The translations under genes were made by a program, and so were the position numbers. The notes under the pieces were generated by a model. It had not been told where the DNA came from. It saw nothing but the letters and a program-made list of their open reading frames with translations, and searched no databases. This document shows, in pieces, positions 51,081 through 57,360 of a stretch of 64,000 nucleotides of DNA (position 1 is its first letter; each line of letters opens with the position of its first letter). Origin of the DNA: Psammoneis japonica (taxonomy: Eukaryota); contig QPGO01000146.1 in NCBI GenBank assembly GCA_008632985.1, positions 124,001-188,000 on the forward strand. The letters are read 5' to 3'.

Positions 51081-51629
51081 CCACTTGTGGCATGAGCGGC
51101 TCTGCAGTTTGCCGGAGCTCTCGGGAATGTGGGCACTTGTGTTGATCCCCCCCCTGACTTCACATGTGATTTGGAATTAATGTCAAACCAAGCTTCAAGA
51201 ATCCCATCACCATCTCACAATGACAACTTTGAGCATGAGCAGACAATGAATTTTTGAATTCCCTCAGTGTGGTTCTTGCACTGGGCAACTGGTCAGCTCC
51301 AGATGAAGATGAGAGTTTTGGCCTTCATGCACTGCTGCTGGAGCTCAATTTGCATTGACTCAACAAAATCGTTTCACTTGCGTGTGACTTCTTTGAGATG
51401 TTTGCTCTTGTGGGTGTCCGCATCTGCTGCAAGAGCAGGTCTGTGCACTGTCTTTGTCTTGAGAGCTGAGAGGAGGTTGGAAAGAAAGCAAATGGAGATT
51501 TTTCCAACTCTTTTTGCAGCTTCTTGAAAGGTCTCCTTTCCTTTTGATTCATTGCCGCTGCTCTTGTTTCCTTTTGTTTTCTTTGGTCTCAACTTTGATT
51601 TTTTCTTTTTCCCACATCAAGCTCCCTCC

Positions 51630-52990
51630 TGACAGCAATGTTGAAGGCAAGACAGCAAAGCCAGGTGTGCTTGGCAAATGGAGAGTGTGGCAAGTGGAGG
51701 AGAAAAACAGATTTCATGCACGTGGTGCACTTGAGCCCAATTTCAACACTTTGGCAATCACGAAACAACATGCCCTCTGTTCACTTGTGGGTTGGCACAA
51801 ACAAGCAGAGAAAAAGGAATGAAGGGCTCTTTGGCGGCTGGAAGGAGCAAAACATGTGCCCTCATGGCTCATTTGCAGACAGAGCTCAGAGGTCAGGTTC
51901 AACAACTTGGGTGACCCCCACAAAGTTGACACAGCACTCAACGGATTTAAGGTTCATTGCAAGACTTTTGTGCCAGGAGCCATGCAGTGAGAGGAAGTTG
52001 AAAAAGGTCTCTCCAACCATTGGAAGAGCCCATTGTTGCAGTCAACAAACATGCAATGGGAGCGTGAGTCAGAGTCCAAGATTTTGACATTCACTGAGAT
52101 GATGCAGAGCAGAGCAGCCTTCATTTTGGGTTTGTTGACTTTCTCTGTGGTGTGTCAACTGCACCTGTCATTGGAGAGTGGAGGAGCAGCAAGTTGGAGC
52201 CATGTGTGTTGATGACAATCACTCAATCCATGACCAGCAGAAGAGTTGTGTGGTGGTTCTTGCAATCCATCAGCGCCAGGTTCAGTGCCAGTTTCTTTGG
52301 ATTTAGAGGAACATCATGGGACATTGGGAATGGATTGCATCAAAAATTTAGAATGAAAAGGGCCACTGCAAACACCCATGATTTGAGTGAGTTGTTGGAG
52401 GTGAGAGTGTCATGCACACAGAATGTGATTTGTCTTCTGGCAATTGGCTCCTTCTTTTGGGGCATTCGGTCATGGAGCTGAGCCCTGACTGCATTGGCTG
52501 GGGCCAGCTTTGAGATGGCCACCAACCATGTTGTTTGACTGTGCTGGCTGGGGCCAGCTTTGAGATGGCAGCCAACCATGTTGTTTGCACTGCCGGCTGT
52601 CAGAAACCTCCTCACAACTGCCCTTTGGGGCGTTTCATGGATGCCGAGTGCCAGACTTGCTCCTGTGAATTCTGCGCCTCACATGTCAGCAACTGGCAGG
52701 AACTGCCAGTTGACAGAGTGAGGAGTTGAGAGCAATGAAAAATCAAAAGCAGCCTCAACAAAGCAGCAAGAAGATTTTTCTTCATCATGGTTAAATGTCA
52801 CTTGGTGTCCATGAAGCATCACCAGTGCCAAAGAAAAATCCGCAGTCATGGCTTCTTGGAGTTCGGCTGTGGTGGCCTGCCATCCGTGGTGTCACAGAGG
52901 CACAGCAGAGCAAGACAGCAACCATCCTTTCAAACTGCTTCAACACTGCAATCATGACAACAGCTCCATGCTAAAACTGTCTCATGAGAC
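51630..52990 (+). pseudogene. Hypermutated duplicate of the VOMI gene and its 3' flank (donor ~43270-44610)
   Basis: Collinear, e.g. GASFEMAANHVVCTAGCQKPP..DAECQTCSCEFCASHVSNW vs GAGFEMATNHVICTAGYQKPP..DAECQTCSYEFCASYISN*. Small internal tandem duplication at 52497-52590. Confidence 0.9.
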
Positions 52991-53099
52991 GTGTGCTTGG
53001 ATTGAACACAGATTGCTCAAAGTTGTGTCAATGCAAGTTGTTTCAGAAAGCCTGACCTCTCAATGTTTCTTCCCGTGAACATGGGTCACTCATTTCATT

Positions 53100-55595: not shown

Positions 55596-55947
55596 ACTTT
55601 ATGCTTTTCGAAACAATGACAACAACAACAGTTTCAATCGATGTTGATTTTTTTGCGTTAGTACGGTAGGGCTTTTGTTGGGGGGCTGGGGTCCCCCGCT
55701 TTTTCCAGTGATCGTGCCACGTAGACTTTTTACAAGACATGCAGAAGATACCGTACACCCCCTCGGCGGGACGCCGTCGTTTTTCTTAAATCGCCCCCGC
55801 TATTCTATTATACCAACACAACATCATATGCCGTATCGCATCAAAAATAGCAAAAGATCGCTAAAATGAGTGAACCATGAAGAAACGACTGCTACTCTAA
55901 CTTACTGTCCTTTCCTTATCTTACTTGTCATTTTGTGCTAGCATACA

Positions 55948-57360
55948 ATGCCGCACATTACTGTTGCTATGGAACCATCTGCTGCTACTACAGCTCGCTT
56001 GCTTCAGGACTATTCGTGGTATGACGCTGCACTGTACACGAATGCTCAGGAATGGACGCTCGTGTTGATCCCCTACTTTAGCGCTCCGTTAAGTGTTGTG
56101 GGGAGTGGCCTGATTCTATACGTGATTTGGAACGAACGTCAAACCAAGCTTCAAGAATCTTATCACCGTCTCATGATGGGTTTGAGCATGATGAATTTTT
56201 TTAATTCTCTCAGCATGATTGTACTGGGCAACTGGTCGGTTCCAGAAGAAGTTGATTTTCCGCTAGCAAGTGGCAATGAGACGACGTGCAGCATTGCTGG
56301 ATTCTTTTTACACTTGGTGTTTGGATCCATGTGGTATTCGTTTTTTCTGGCACTCAATTTTGCCTTGCGAATACGTTGCGAACGTCAACCAAAATGCGTA
56401 GCTCGATACTGTGAACCCTTTGCCCATGTACTCGGGTGTCTGTATCCCATCGTTGCGGCAACCATTGCGGCAGCAAGAGACTACTTTAATCCCGTGGAAC
56501 CCTTGGTGGGGTGGTGTTGGTCTACCGATTTTCCCAATGCATGCGGCGACAAGGGTGATGCCGGTTGTATACGAGGCAACAGTCATAATCCGGCTGCAGA
56601 TGCGGCCACAATTATCATTTTGTTTGTCGGTATTGCCATTTGTATGGTACTCATTACACTCAAGGTCCGACGTACCGAATTGAATATGCGTCGCTATTCG
56701 GGAAGCACGGCTCGAGCCATGATTCGAACACGACAATCACGCATCCAAGCTCTGTTGTACATGGGGGCGTTTGGTGCGGTTTACTTTCCCATGCTGGGTC
56801 TCATGGCACTGGGCGATGACTTTACCCAGCACAGTCAGGGATTGTACTTTGCCTTTGCCGTCTTGACCAAGCTCTTTATGCCACTGCAGGGCTTTTTTAA
56901 TGCCTTTATTTACTTTCGAAACAACTTTCGTGCGCTACAACAAGAAGGACGGAGTCTGTCCTTTATCCCCAAGTGGGGAGATAAGATATCGACTACACTG
57001 AGAATGAGAACGACAGCAATGACACGCAACTCGACAGGTTCTACCAGTGGAACAAATAGTGGTGATGCTACTCCTTGTAGAAGAAGCAGCGCAGATAATC
57101 CCACCACCGCTTGCGAAAAGGTCAATGACGGTGCGGAAAGTCCGTCGAGCAATTTAGACGGTTCCGGAAACGAGTGTGATGCATCTAATAAAGAGAAGGA
57201 TTTAAATGGCACAGCAAAGCATAGGCCCACTGTCACGTTTGCGGACAACATTATACAAGACCCAGTAAAGGAGGATTTGATGGAAGACAGCACAAGTGAC
57301 GGAACCGAAGATCGAACCGAGGAATCCAAAGAAGAGGACAATAACGTGACGGAAGTTTAG
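55948..57360 (+). CDS. Seven-transmembrane GPCR-like protein, paralog 3
   Basis: Intact 470-aa ORF collinear with paralog 1; PLQGFFNAFIYFR. Start may be the second Met at 55969. Confidence 0.87.
   Translation: MPHITVAMEPSAATTARLLQDYSWYDAALYTNAQEWTLVLIPYFSAPLSVVGSGLILYVIWNERQTKLQESYHRLMMGLSMMNFFNSLSMIVLGNWSVPEEVDFPLASGNETTCSIAGFFLHLVFGSMWYSFFLALNFALRIRCERQPKCVARYCEPFAHVLGCLYPIVAATIAAARDYFNPVEPLVGWCWSTDFPNACGDKGDAGCIRGNSHNPAADAATIIILFVGIAICMVLITLKVRRTELNMRRYSGSTARAMIRTRQSRIQALLYMGAFGAVYFPMLGLMALGDDFTQHSQGLYFAFAVLTKLFMPLQGFFNAFIYFRNNFRALQQEGRSLSFIPKWGDKISTTLRMRTTAMTRNSTGSTSGTNSGDATPCRRSSADNPTTACEKVNDGAESPSSNLDGSGNECDASNKEKDLNGTAKHRPTVTFADNIIQDPVKEDLMEDSTSDGTEDRTEESKEEDNNVTEV

What the first reader, a model, noticed from the sequence alone, without database searches (positions are those of the whole stretch)
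51250..57360. Only TE-adjacent copies are hit and the effect fades outward: spreading rather than homology pairing
The block ~42.4-45.8 kb (gene fragment, VOMI, F-box-like) is duplicated at ~51.25-55.6 kb beside the TE cluster. The donors keep their TAs. The copy is most depleted near the TEs, keeps scattered TAs at 54.2-54.5 kb and returns to normal at ~55.55 kb within the F-box paralog's 5' end. The kinase copy likewise keeps TAs at 20210-20335 and loses them further in. Fungal RIP typically mutates both partners, so this asymmetry points to a chromatin-domain guide. Purifying selection on the donor is an alternative, but the donor's synonymous and 3'-flank TAs are also intact.
Basis: partly seen in the sequence, partly recalled or inferred. 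Interest (0 to 1): 0.78.

Follow-up and report, generated by a model that had tools for sequence, protein, structure and literature searches.

The report
TA-erasing mutation domains in a diatom
In this diatom chromosome, silent stretches holding transposons and dead gene copies have had almost every TA step rewritten to TG or CA, right up to sharp edges beside neighbouring genes, while the working originals next door are untouched, which points to a DNA-editing defence aimed at a domain and not at paired copies.

Summary
The core observation is real. The window is diatom nuclear DNA with TA-free islands at 7983-9805, 10597-15684, 20328-30255, 36055-38036 and 46111-55559 (rho TA 0.06 against 0.59 outside).

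Host-derived duplicates inside islands kept 5 of 124 donor TA sites; 96 became TG or CA. Their partners outside keep normal TA, even in a non-coding 3' flank (rho 0.90). The asymmetry therefore holds, and selection on the donors does not explain it.

Two parts of the finding fail:
- **No outward fade.** All ten island edges are steps within 200 bp. The outermost 830 bp of the copy has no TA at all, and the scattered TAs at 54.2-54.5 kb lie further in.
- **TE adjacency does not decide.** The untouched donor F-box gene starts about 310 bp from the same island.

New points:
- The changes hit both strands about equally, site by site.
- They arose independently in two tandem VOMI copies.
- They prefer T-A-pyrimidine.
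- They run far ahead of CpG decay: the F-box copy is TA-free but keeps its CpGs.

The closest known case is TpA hypermutation in Bigelowiella natans (2026 preprint). My searches found no report in diatoms. The guide and the enzyme are inferred, not shown.

The parts
46111..55559 (.). TA-free island 4 (rho TA 0.05-0.13, TG+CA 1.6-1.8). Its right 4.3 kb is the duplicated host block.
42656..45825 (.). Donor block (fragment, VOMI gene on +, F-box gene on -) with normal TA. It lies directly left of island 4.
51153..51312 (+). Relic of a gene X paralog (matches 56109-56255). 4 of 5 donor TA became CA.
51498..51616 (.). Copy of fragment 42656-42774. 0 of 3 donor TA kept; none became TG/CA.
51641..53023 (+). 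VOMI copy A, a pseudogene with 4 stops. TA kept 2, TG/CA 37, other 12; CG kept 6, TG/CA 46.
53264..53904 (+). VOMI copy B (tandem duplicate of A). TA kept 0, TG/CA 21, other 3. At 7 of 18 shared sites its outcome is opposite to copy A.
54103..54529 (-). F-box copy, C-terminal part. TA kept 3, TG/CA 6, other 2. CpG retained (16 kept, 3 to TG/CA; rho CG 0.89).
54533..54953 (.). Palindromic insertion (190-nt arms) that splits the F-box copy. A form without it exists in the reads (joint 54532->54954). 1 TA.
54954..55623 (-). F-box copy, N-terminal part; frame open with no stop. 0 of 15 donor TA kept up to 55559. CpG retained (23 kept, 9 to TG/CA). Homology runs 64 bp past the TA edge.
55559..55586 (.). 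Right edge of the TA-free domain. Last converted donor TA at 55574, first retained at 55586. It lies about 35 bp inside the F-box copy's coding start (CAT at 55593-55595).
55942..57360 (+). Gene X3, normal TA, transcribed away from the island. Paralog of 38261-39745 (dN/dS 0.06).
20203..21086 (-). Copy of the 3' part of the kinase gene (donor 5430-6298), with 2 stops. TA kept only up to 20328, then 0 of 23. Transversion divergence 1.1%.
21420..21536 (.). Copy of 17457-17573. 6 of 7 donor TA became TG/CA, 0 kept.
20328..30255 (.). TA-free island 2.
7983..15684 (.). TA-free island 1: a Copia remnant on the - strand, interrupted at 9806-10596 by a less converted element with terminal inverted repeats.
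36055..38036 (.). TA-free island 3 (rho TA 0.03, rho CG 0.25).
46487..46882 (.). High-copy element with terminal inverted repeats (copies also at 23246-23637 and 9806-10596). Word depth 19,000-33,000 against about 57 for single-copy DNA.

Best explanation
A DNA-level mutational process converts the A:T pair of TpA steps to G:C (TA to TG or CA). It acts in place, on either strand, one site at a time. It is confined to sharply bounded silent domains that hold transposon remnants and whatever host DNA lies with them, such as pseudogenised duplicates.

What decides whether a sequence is hit is which side of a domain edge it lies on. Having a homologous partner does not matter, and neither does distance from a transposon. 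Seven of the eight outer edges lie on the 5' side of the nearest long ORF.

Shown here: the direction, the dinucleotide specificity, the use of both strands, the independence of events, the asymmetry between partners, the step-like edges, and the speed relative to other substitutions.

Inferred:
- The domains are heterochromatin-like.
- Active promoters act as the barriers.
- The chemistry is adenine deamination by a TadA/ADAT-type deaminase. In its tRNA substrate that enzyme reads U33-A34, which would explain the TpA rule (textbook knowledge; also proposed in the Bigelowiella preprint).
- The F-box copy joined the domain late, so its TA is gone but its CpG has not yet decayed.
For: - **Specificity.** TA is retained at 5% against 57-78% for 14 other dinucleotides and 35% for CG. 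TA became CA 50 times and TG 46 times.
- **Polarity.** At 7 of 18 shared sites VOMI copy A has TG where copy B has CA, or the reverse. The ancestor was therefore TA, and the hits came after the tandem duplication, in place.
- **Both strands, no clustering.** TG/(TG+CA) is 0.44-0.63 per kb across islands. Runs tests give z 0.16-0.84 in five blocks.
- **Asymmetry.** Seven host-derived segments inside islands were aligned to a partner outside: kinase, the 17.4-kb fragment, the X fragment, the 42.7-kb fragment, two VOMI copies and the F-box copy. Six are converted to TG/CA. The 42.7-kb fragment lost all 3 of its donor TAs, but to other dinucleotides. All the partners outside are intact, including neutral sites.
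- **Edges.** 10 of 10 are steps within 200 bp. Seven of the 8 outer edges face the 5' side of the flanking long ORF, 110-410 bp from it. The donor F-box gene, 314 bp from island 4, is untouched.
- **Speed.** The kinase copy has 1.1% transversion divergence yet keeps 0 of 23 TA, while 22 of 50 CG survive. TA conversion is therefore a few hundred times faster than transversions and at least about 4 times faster than CpG decay in the same DNA (my arithmetic).
- **Sequence context.** Among 53 informative events, the mutated strand has a pyrimidine 3' of the A in 40 (p 3e-4). Surviving island TAs are enriched in TTAA and absent in ATAT (chi-square p 2e-28).
- **Reads.** Contigs of run X1 reproduce the TA-free sequence with 1-10 differences per 0.7-1.1 kb.
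- **Precedent.** In B. natans mutation-accumulation lines, 230 of 231 mutations in two integrated viral regions were A>G or T>C, and these all fell on TpA. The rate was about 1000 times background, and the larger target is single copy.
Against: - No chromatin, methylation or usable expression data, so 'silent domain' and 'promoter barrier' are inferences.
- At both edges that can be tested, the TA edge lies within 64-125 bp of the end of the duplicated segment (20203 against 20328; 55623 against 55559). A trigger defined by the duplication would predict this too.
- The CpG-decay proxy ends 1.5 kb inside the TA edge. If 5mC marks the domain, the two do not coincide.
- Two exceptions need an extra assumption about age: the patch at 54.1-54.5 kb (3 of 11 kept) and the element at 9806-10596 inside island 1 (rho TA 0.30).
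- The enzyme is unknown, and no genome was held in which to look for it.
- This is one 64-kb window. Two flanking 'genes' are only long ORFs with no family match.
Confidence: 0.65

Rival explanations
1. A RIP-like, homology-triggered process. Duplicated DNA is recognised by pairing and mutated, and the donors look clean only because lineages with mutated donors were removed by selection, or because only the new copy is marked.
For: - Every host-derived segment seen inside an island is a duplicate.
- The TA edge lies 64-125 bp inside the end of homology at both testable edges.
- Many diatoms encode DNMT4 enzymes related to fungal RID, of unknown function (PMC9998398, passages only).
Against: - Donor TA is intact where selection cannot act: rho 0.90 in the 394-bp 3' flank and 0.66-0.77 upstream.
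- The direction is opposite to RIP: TA is destroyed, not made.
- Paralogs X1, X2 and X3 outside islands show no bias, although at 72-78% identity they may be too diverged to pair.
- 49.3-54.0 kb sits near single-copy word depth (61-92 against about 57).
- The larger of the two B. natans targets is single copy.
Confidence: 0.1
2. Same targeting but different chemistry. Thymine in TpA is modified (for example oxidised to 5-hydroxymethyluracil by a JBP/TET-type enzyme) and miscopied as C. On this reading the primary event is T>C and not A>G.
For: - The TpA step is its own reverse complement, so the sequence data cannot tell A>G on one strand from T>C on the other.
- The context result reads equally well as purine-T-A.
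- From memory, not from a call: some protists modify thymine preferentially at TpA.
Against: - No evidence for such an enzyme or base in this organism. None could be sought without a genome.
- The authors of the only experimental precedent favour adenine deamination and name an ADAT2 candidate.
Confidence: 0.15
3. RNA-level editing. ADAR-type A-to-I hyperediting of transposon RNA is fixed by reverse transcription, so the islands are retro-copies that arrived already edited.
For: - Island 1 is a Copia retroelement.
- According to the preprint's discussion, ADARs favour a 5' U.
Against: - Changes fall on both strands about equally, including in the Copia, with no strand runs.
- The converted host block is colinear with its donor array and continues into the intact gene X3.
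- VOMI copies A and B were hit independently after their tandem duplication in place.
- DNA transposon-like elements are converted as well.
Confidence: 0.03
4. Artefact. A base modification at TA in heterochromatin makes the base-caller read TG or CA, so the assembly is wrong and the DNA is not.
For: - The window differs from run X1 at four sites (53639-53838) where the run has TA and the window has TG/CA.
- The read type of the runs is not on record.
Against: - Contigs built from 31-letter words of run X1 carry the same TA-free sequence across 48.5-53.1 kb, with only 1-10 differences per piece. Of the 35 listed island differences, 19 are CpG-related and 4 TA-related. This is the same sample, so it is not fully independent.
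- The converted copies also carry stops, indels and 6-8% transversions like ordinary old pseudogenes.
Confidence: 0.03

Closest known systems
TpA hypermutation of integrated viral DNA in Bigelowiella natans (bioRxiv 10.64898/2026.01.13.699255; outline, Results and Discussion read)
   Same: - TA to TG/CA transitions, with changes of both kinds (TpA->TpG and TpA->CpA).
- Confined to particular regions, and orders of magnitude faster than background.
- Long-term signature of TA loss with CA+TG gain, enriched in transposon-type coding sequences.
- The larger target (the NCLDV insert) is single copy.
   Different: - That organism is a chlorarachniophyte (Rhizaria); this one is a diatom.
- There the regions still hold 3.3% TpA. 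Here the erasure is nearly complete (0.33% of dinucleotides).
- Shown here but not there (a term search found 0 uses of 'context', 'trinucleotide' or 'boundar'): host gene duplicates are hit while their partners are spared, edges are steps of 200 bp or less beside gene starts, the extended context is T-A-pyrimidine, and TA loss is uncoupled from CpG decay.
- There the mutations were seen arising de novo. Here they are only inferred from paralogs.
Repeat-induced point mutation (RIP) of ascomycete fungi
   Same: A genome defence that permanently mutates transposons and duplicated genes with dinucleotide-specific transitions, leaving compositionally distinct islands.
   Different: - RIP makes C>T, mostly at CpA, and so creates TpA. 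Here TpA is destroyed.
- RIP hits both partners of a duplication. Here only the partner inside the island is hit.
- RIP's repeat dependence was not found here.
CpG methylation of diatom transposons (DNMT5a; PMC9998398, passages only) and the CpG decay it causes
   Same: Most island DNA shows CG>TG/CA decay (rho CG 0.21-0.60). Of the 35 listed differences between window and reads in the island, 19 are CpG/TpG-CpA.
   Different: CpG decay cannot remove TA. It is also absent from the TA-free F-box copy (CG 39 kept, 12 to TG/CA; no different from controls, p 0.27). The two processes have different edges or different speeds.
Deaminase editing defences of animals (APOBEC3 on retroelement cDNA, ADAR on dsRNA)
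   Same: Editing of mobile-element nucleic acid as a defence, with a preference for a particular neighbouring base.
   Different: Those act on single-stranded cDNA or on RNA and leave strand-coordinated clusters. Here both strands of resident chromosomal DNA are hit site by site.

Membership tests
Regional TpA>TpG/CpA hypermutation (B. natans type) | Changes are A>G / T>C transitions restricted to TpA | tested here: met
   TA retained at 5%, with 96 of the changes to TG/CA. Other dinucleotides are retained at 57-78% and CG at 35%.
Regional TpA>TpG/CpA hypermutation (B. natans type) | Confined to particular regions, at a rate orders of magnitude above the rest of the genome | tested here: met
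   Island rho TA 0.06 against 0.59 outside, with step-like edges. The kinase copy keeps 0 of 23 TA at 1.1% transversion divergence. The rate ratio is my arithmetic, not a measurement.
Regional TpA>TpG/CpA hypermutation (B. natans type) | Mutations seen arising de novo in cultured lines | not testable with these tools
   Only contigs of one sample were available. Four TA against TG/CA differences between window and run at 53639-53838 are a weak hint of recent events.
Regional TpA>TpG/CpA hypermutation (B. natans type) | Targets are foreign DNA (integrated viruses, transposons) | tested here: inconclusive
   Copia domains in island 1 and high-copy elements with terminal inverted repeats. Host pseudogenes are hit as well. 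98 of the 99 ORFs tested in islands 2-4 have no hit that passes Pfam's own cut-off; the other is the TPR array.
Fungal RIP | C>T at CpA, giving a gain of TpA | tested here: not met
   The direction is the opposite: TA is lost and TG+CA gained.
Fungal RIP | Both members of a duplication are mutated | tested here: not met
   Donors are intact at coding and non-coding TA. Only the island members are converted.
Fungal RIP | Depends on a RID-type DNMT | not testable with these tools
   No genome is held. Diatom DNMT4 related to RID exists in many species and its function is unknown (PMC9998398).
ADAR-type RNA hyperediting fixed by retrotransposition | Changes on one strand only (the sense strand of the edited RNA) | tested here: not met
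   46 TG against 50 CA, interleaved. TG share 0.44-0.63 per kb.
Methylated-CpG decay domain | CG>TG/CA excess coextensive with the feature | tested here: not met
   Present in the VOMI copies (10 kept, 69 to TG/CA) but not in the equally old, TA-free F-box copy (39 kept, 12 to TG/CA; p 1e-13).

The most novel reading that the evidence does not exclude
Diatoms carry the same TpA-directed DNA-editing defence just seen in a chlorarachniophyte, which would make it an old trait of the SAR supergroup. It is steered by chromatin state and not by homology, and it follows a silent domain as the domain moves.

In this window a polymorphic palindromic insertion disrupted the border F-box gene on one haplotype. 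The silent domain then advanced 1.5 kb to the next promoter, and every TA in that stretch was rewritten before CpG decay had begun. If this is right, the haplotype without the insertion still carries its TAs.

One count fits but was not verified. The contig without the insertion differs from the window at 11 of 373 positions. Nine donor TA sites in that span are TG/CA in the window.
Probability: 0.3. Interest if true: 0.9.

Novelty: new variant of a known kind. Interest (0 to 1): 0.72.

Why it matters
Apart from fungal RIP, very few permanent, mutation-based genome defences are known in eukaryotes. A TpA-erasing process was first reported in 2026, in a single alga, and neither its guide nor its enzyme is known.

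This window suggests the process also operates in diatoms, a major group of ocean primary producers. It also supplies natural controls that bear on how the process is aimed:
- The same sequence sits inside and outside a domain, and only the inside copy is hit.
- The edges are steps beside gene starts.
- Conversion is faster than CpG decay.
- The motif is T-A-pyrimidine.

Together these turn 'what guides it' into a testable question: compare the edges with chromatin maps and with the two haplotypes. The context also narrows the search for the enzyme.

There are practical consequences for annotation. TA-free DNA has no TAA or TAG stops and no tyrosine codons, so it produces long false ORFs and hides transposon proteins from homology searches.

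Tried and rejected
- **Whole genome:** none is held, so copy numbers, other islands and candidate enzymes could not be examined.
- **Earlier scan notes:** nothing on this genome or on eukaryotic TA loss. The hits were phage cases and were not used.
- **Island content:** ORF 49563-50564(-) has no homolog (0 of 1149 candidates). Pfam on 99 ORFs of islands 2-4 gave only weak chance-level hits, all below their cut-offs. A search for LTR pairs at island ends found nothing beyond one 28-nt match.
- **Relatives elsewhere:** a metagenome scan with the Copia integrase ORF gave 40 pattern hits, none confirmed. A scan with a conserved 26-nt motif of the high-copy element gave 0.
- **Expression:** no RNA holder is listed. 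Run X2 has GT..AG joints and looks RNA-like. It has no cover over 46.0-53.3 kb and low cover over 53.3-55.3 kb.
- **Barrier elements:** no tRNA gene and no Rfam family in the window.
- **Polarising by conserved tyrosines:** the Copia RT motif region and the TPR array were too degenerate or too ambiguous to use.
- **Fade hypothesis:** F1 (3 of 11 kept) differs from the VOMI copies (2 of 75; p 0.014) but lies inside a fully converted outer block (0 of 15; p 0.06). It is therefore a local patch, not a gradient.
- **Supplements of the B. natans preprint:** these are closed and may hold per-site contexts.

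
Full report
**What the window is.** A ribosomal protein eS1 (S3Ae) ORF at 60408-61496(-) is 74-91% identical to the 120 best of 4021 hits. Every hit that carries an organism name is a diatom (Thalassionema, Helicotheca, Cyclophora, Mayamaea, Trieres, Eucampia, Attheya). Genes are compact with long ORFs: linker histone, kinases, neprosin, VOMI, F-box. No whole genome is held, so everything below rests on these 64 kb and on one sample's read contigs.

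**The islands are real.** TA per 500 bp falls from about 20 to 0-5 in four blocks, while TG+CA rises from about 70 to 100-118.
- TA-free gaps of 0.8-1.5 kb place the islands at 7983-9805, 10597-15684, 20328-30255, 36055-38036 and 46111-55559.
- Rho TA is 0.06 in the islands (94 TA in 28,270 bp) against 0.59 outside (1446 in 35,730 bp).
- Rho CG is 0.45 against 1.00, and rho TG+CA is 1.67 against 1.18.

**The duplication is real, and more complex than described.** Self-BLAST matches these pairs:

| Donor | Copy | Content |
|---|---|---|
| 42656-42774 | 51498-51616 | fragment |
| 43278-44643 | 51641-53023 | VOMI copy A |
| 43936-44579 | 53264-53904 | VOMI copy B, a second tandem copy |
| 44690-45140 | 54103-54529 | F-box, C-terminal part |
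| 45156-45825 | 54954-55623 | F-box, N-terminal part |
| 56109-56255 | 51153-51312 | piece of gene X |

- A 421-bp palindromic insertion (190-nt arms) splits the F-box copy.
- Gene X has full paralogs at 38.3, 40.6 and 55.9 kb. The region is therefore an old tandem array of X-VOMI-F-box units, and its second unit lies inside island 4.
- Transversion divergence is 6-8% for all four blocks of that unit, so they have one age. The kinase copy (5430-6298 ~ 20203-21086) is younger at 1.1%.

**Fate of TA.** Donor TA sites in the island copies, by block:

| Block | Kept | TG/CA | Other |
|---|---|---|---|
| Kinase copy, inner part | 0 | 22 | 1 |
| VOMI copy A | 2 | 37 | 12 |
| VOMI copy B | 0 | 21 | 3 |
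| F-box 54103-54529 | 3 | 6 | 2 |
| F-box 54954-55559 | 0 | 10 | 5 |
| **Total (124 sites)** | **5** | **96** | **23** |

- Three paralog pairs that both lie outside islands give 76 kept, 35 TG/CA and 47 other, of 158. That is p 6e-18 for retention and 4e-8 for TG/CA among the changes.
- Across all dinucleotides TA is retained at 5%, CG at 35% and the rest at 57-78%.
- Three small pairs were also aligned: 17457-17573 > 21420-21536 (6 of 7 to TG/CA), the X fragment (4 of 5 to CA), and 42656-42774 > 51498-51616 (0 of 3 kept, none to TG/CA).

**The donors are clean where selection cannot act.** Rho TA is 0.90 in the 394-bp stretch between the VOMI and F-box stops. It is 0.66-0.77 upstream of the two genes and 0.41-0.58 in the ORFs, against 0.60 +/- 0.19 for 400-bp background windows.

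**Polarity, strand and independence.** VOMI copies A and B share 18 donor-TA sites at which both now read TG or CA. At 11 sites the outcome is the same and at 7 it is opposite (TG in one, CA in the other; read). This does not differ from the 1:1 expected for independent hits (p 0.48).
- Opposite outcomes need a TA ancestor and two separate events after the tandem duplication. The process therefore acted in place on chromosomal DNA.
- Outcomes are 46 TG and 50 CA, interleaved with no strand runs (z 0.16-0.84).
- TG/(TG+CA) is 0.44-0.63 per kb through all islands, including the Copia remnant.
- This excludes one-strand RNA editing and processive single-strand deamination.

**Sequence context.**
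- Surviving island TAs are strongly non-random. TTAA is 5.5-fold and CTAA/TTAG 3.5-fold enriched relative to background TAs, and ATAT is absent (0 against 93) (chi-square p 2e-28).
- The pattern holds after normalising to the TG/CA products of each context, from over 200-fold for ATAT down to 2.3-fold for TTAA.
- The donors give both the ancestral context and the outcome, so the mutated strand can be identified. Among the 53 events where the two strands differ, the mutated strand has a pyrimidine 3' of the A in 40 and a purine in 13 (p 3e-4).
- The motif is therefore T-A-Y, read as A>G, or equally R-T-A, read as T>C.

**No outward fade.**
- All ten island edges go from 5-16 TA per 200 bp to 0 within one bin. 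Only the left side of island 4 (46.1-48.5 kb, rho 0.13) stays partly depleted further in.
- At the finding's own edge, TA per 200 bp from the edge inward is 0,0,0,0,1,1,3,1,2,1. The outermost 830 bp (54729-55559) is the cleanest part.
- The kept TAs at 54260, 54338 and 54510 are a local patch (3 of 11). Fully converted DNA lies on both sides of it: 2 of 75 kept further in and 0 of 15 further out.
- The last converted donor site is 55574 and the first kept one is 55586. That is about 35 bp inside the F-box copy's coding start, and homology continues to 55623.
- In the kinase copy, 3 of the first 5 sites are kept (20254, 20314, 20328), then 0 of 23. The donor itself has no TA for the next 143 bp, so the step cannot be placed more precisely.

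**TE adjacency is not the discriminator.**
- The intact donor F-box gene starts about 314 bp from the left edge of the same island.
- By the longest flanking ORFs, 7 of the 8 outer edges face a gene's 5' side, 110-410 bp from the ORF. The eighth lies 615 bp past the neprosin stop. Two of these flanking ORFs have no family match.
- Islands therefore fill the space between genes that are transcribed away from them and stop just short of the gene starts.
- This fits a barrier at active promoters, but that is an inference.
- The 'TE cluster' at 46-51 kb is only partly verified. It holds one element with terminal inverted repeats at 46487-46882, with two more copies in the window and word depth of 19,000-33,000 against about 57. 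None of its 34 ORFs has a TE protein domain. Clear Copia domains occur only in island 1.

**Two clocks.** CpG decay (CG>TG/CA) by block:

| Block | CG kept | CG to TG/CA |
|---|---|---|
| VOMI copies A+B | 10 | 69 |
| Kinase copy, inner part | 22 | 26 |
| F-box copy | 39 | 12 |

- The F-box copy has the same age as the VOMI copies but differs from them sharply (p 1e-13). It does not differ from the control pairs (p 0.27).
- Ordered by rho TA / rho CG, the segments run as follows:
  - element 9806-10596 inside island 1: 0.30 / 1.13
  - F-box copy: 0-0.18 / 0.88
  - 46.1-48.5 kb: 0.13 / 0.60
  - kinase copy: 0 / 0.57
  - VOMI copies: 0.07 / 0.21
  - island 3: 0.03 / 0.25
- TA loss therefore saturates long before CpG decay.
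- From the kinase copy, TA conversion is at least about 4 times faster than CpG decay in the same DNA and a few hundred times faster than transversions (my arithmetic).
- Rims that are TA-free but keep their CpG also occur at the right edge of island 3 (400 bp) and the left edge of island 1.
- Either the TA process reaches beyond the methylated core, or those rims joined the domain late.

**Reads (same sample as the likely source, so not independent).**
- X1 contigs carry the TA-free sequence: 48481-49206 with 10 differences, 49562-50532 with 1, 51178-52246 with 4, and 52315-53136 with 3.
- Of the 40 best-supported differences printed (136 more were not shown), 35 lie in the island. Nineteen are CpG against TpG/CpA. 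Four are sites where the run has TA and the window has TG/CA, all at 53639-53838. That suggests ongoing CpG decay and gives a hint of recent TA events.
- A form lacking the palindromic insertion exists (joint 54532>54954; X1 depth 44.8, X2 depth 7). The contig spanning that joint differs from the window at 11 of 373 positions. I could not see which positions.

**Mechanism.** The best-supported reading is a DNA-level, TpA-specific A:T>G:C hypermutation confined to sharply bounded silent domains and independent of a homologous partner.
- The chemistry is inferred. Adenine deamination by a TadA/ADAT-type enzyme is attractive because that enzyme's natural substrate is A34 preceded by the invariant U33 (textbook knowledge). 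The B. natans authors name an ADAT2 candidate.
- A thymine-modification route cannot be excluded from sequence alone.
- A RIP-like trigger is the main rival on targeting. Its best argument is that the TA edge lies within 64-125 bp of the end of homology at both testable edges. The clean neutral sites of the donors count against it.

**Comparison and novelty.** The only close precedent I found is the 2026 preprint on Bigelowiella natans. It reports TpA-only A>G/T>C mutations at about 1000 times background in two integrated viral regions, the larger of which is single copy.
- Four full-text searches found no report of such a process in diatoms.
- A diatom DNMT paper, of which I read passages only, describes CpG methylation of transposons and RID-related DNMT4 enzymes of unknown function. 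It does not contain the stem 'deamina' (0 occurrences).
- New here are the diatom host, near-complete erasure, the inside/outside paralog controls, the step-like edges beside gene starts, the T-A-Y context and the uncoupling from CpG decay.

**Limits.** This is one window. There are no chromatin or expression data and no genome in which to look for the enzyme. The read contigs come from the same sample, part of their output was not shown, and the preprint's supplements are closed.

Noticed in passing
window 26329-27294 (-): Seven to eight 126-bp tandem units encode a TPR_10/TPR_12 array (E 9e-90) inside TA-free island 2. It is an open 321-aa frame with 8 TA left. It may be a recently silenced host gene of the NLR or kinesin-light-chain type.
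   Followed up: partly
window 9806-10596, 23246-23637, 46487-46882: A family of elements with about 20-nt terminal inverted repeats, one long and two short forms. Word depth at 46.0-47.3 kb is 19,000-33,000 against about 57. The three copies show TA, TG and CA at the same column. The copy inside island 1 is the least converted (rho TA 0.30, rho CG 1.13).
   Followed up: partly
window 54533-54953: A palindromic 421-bp insertion in the F-box copy. It is absent from another form in the reads, so it is polymorphic. It already has almost no TA, so the family seems to spread in mutated form.
   Followed up: partly
window 42627-42826 and 58747-58916: Run X2, listed as 'DNA?', has contigs that skip 198 and 168 bases with GT..AG ends. 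This looks like spliced RNA and marks two introns.
   Followed up: no
window 38261-39745, 40584-41842, 55942-57360: Three paralogs of an unknown gene with no Pfam match, under strong purifying selection (X1 against X3: dN/dS 0.06). They frame the duplicated VOMI/F-box units.
   Followed up: partly
window 52503-52612: A 50-bp direct duplication inside VOMI copy A. It is absent from an X1 contig (joint 52521>52572), so it is an indel polymorphism or an assembly difference.
   Followed up: no
all islands: TA-free DNA lacks TAA and TAG stops and tyrosine codons. It therefore yields many long spurious ORFs (100 of 80 aa or more in islands 2-4) and weakens protein homology to transposon domains.
   Followed up: partly
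window 37600-38036 and 7983-8600: Rims of 400-600 bp at two more island edges are TA-free yet keep a normal CpG count, like the 1.5-kb F-box rim.
   Followed up: partly
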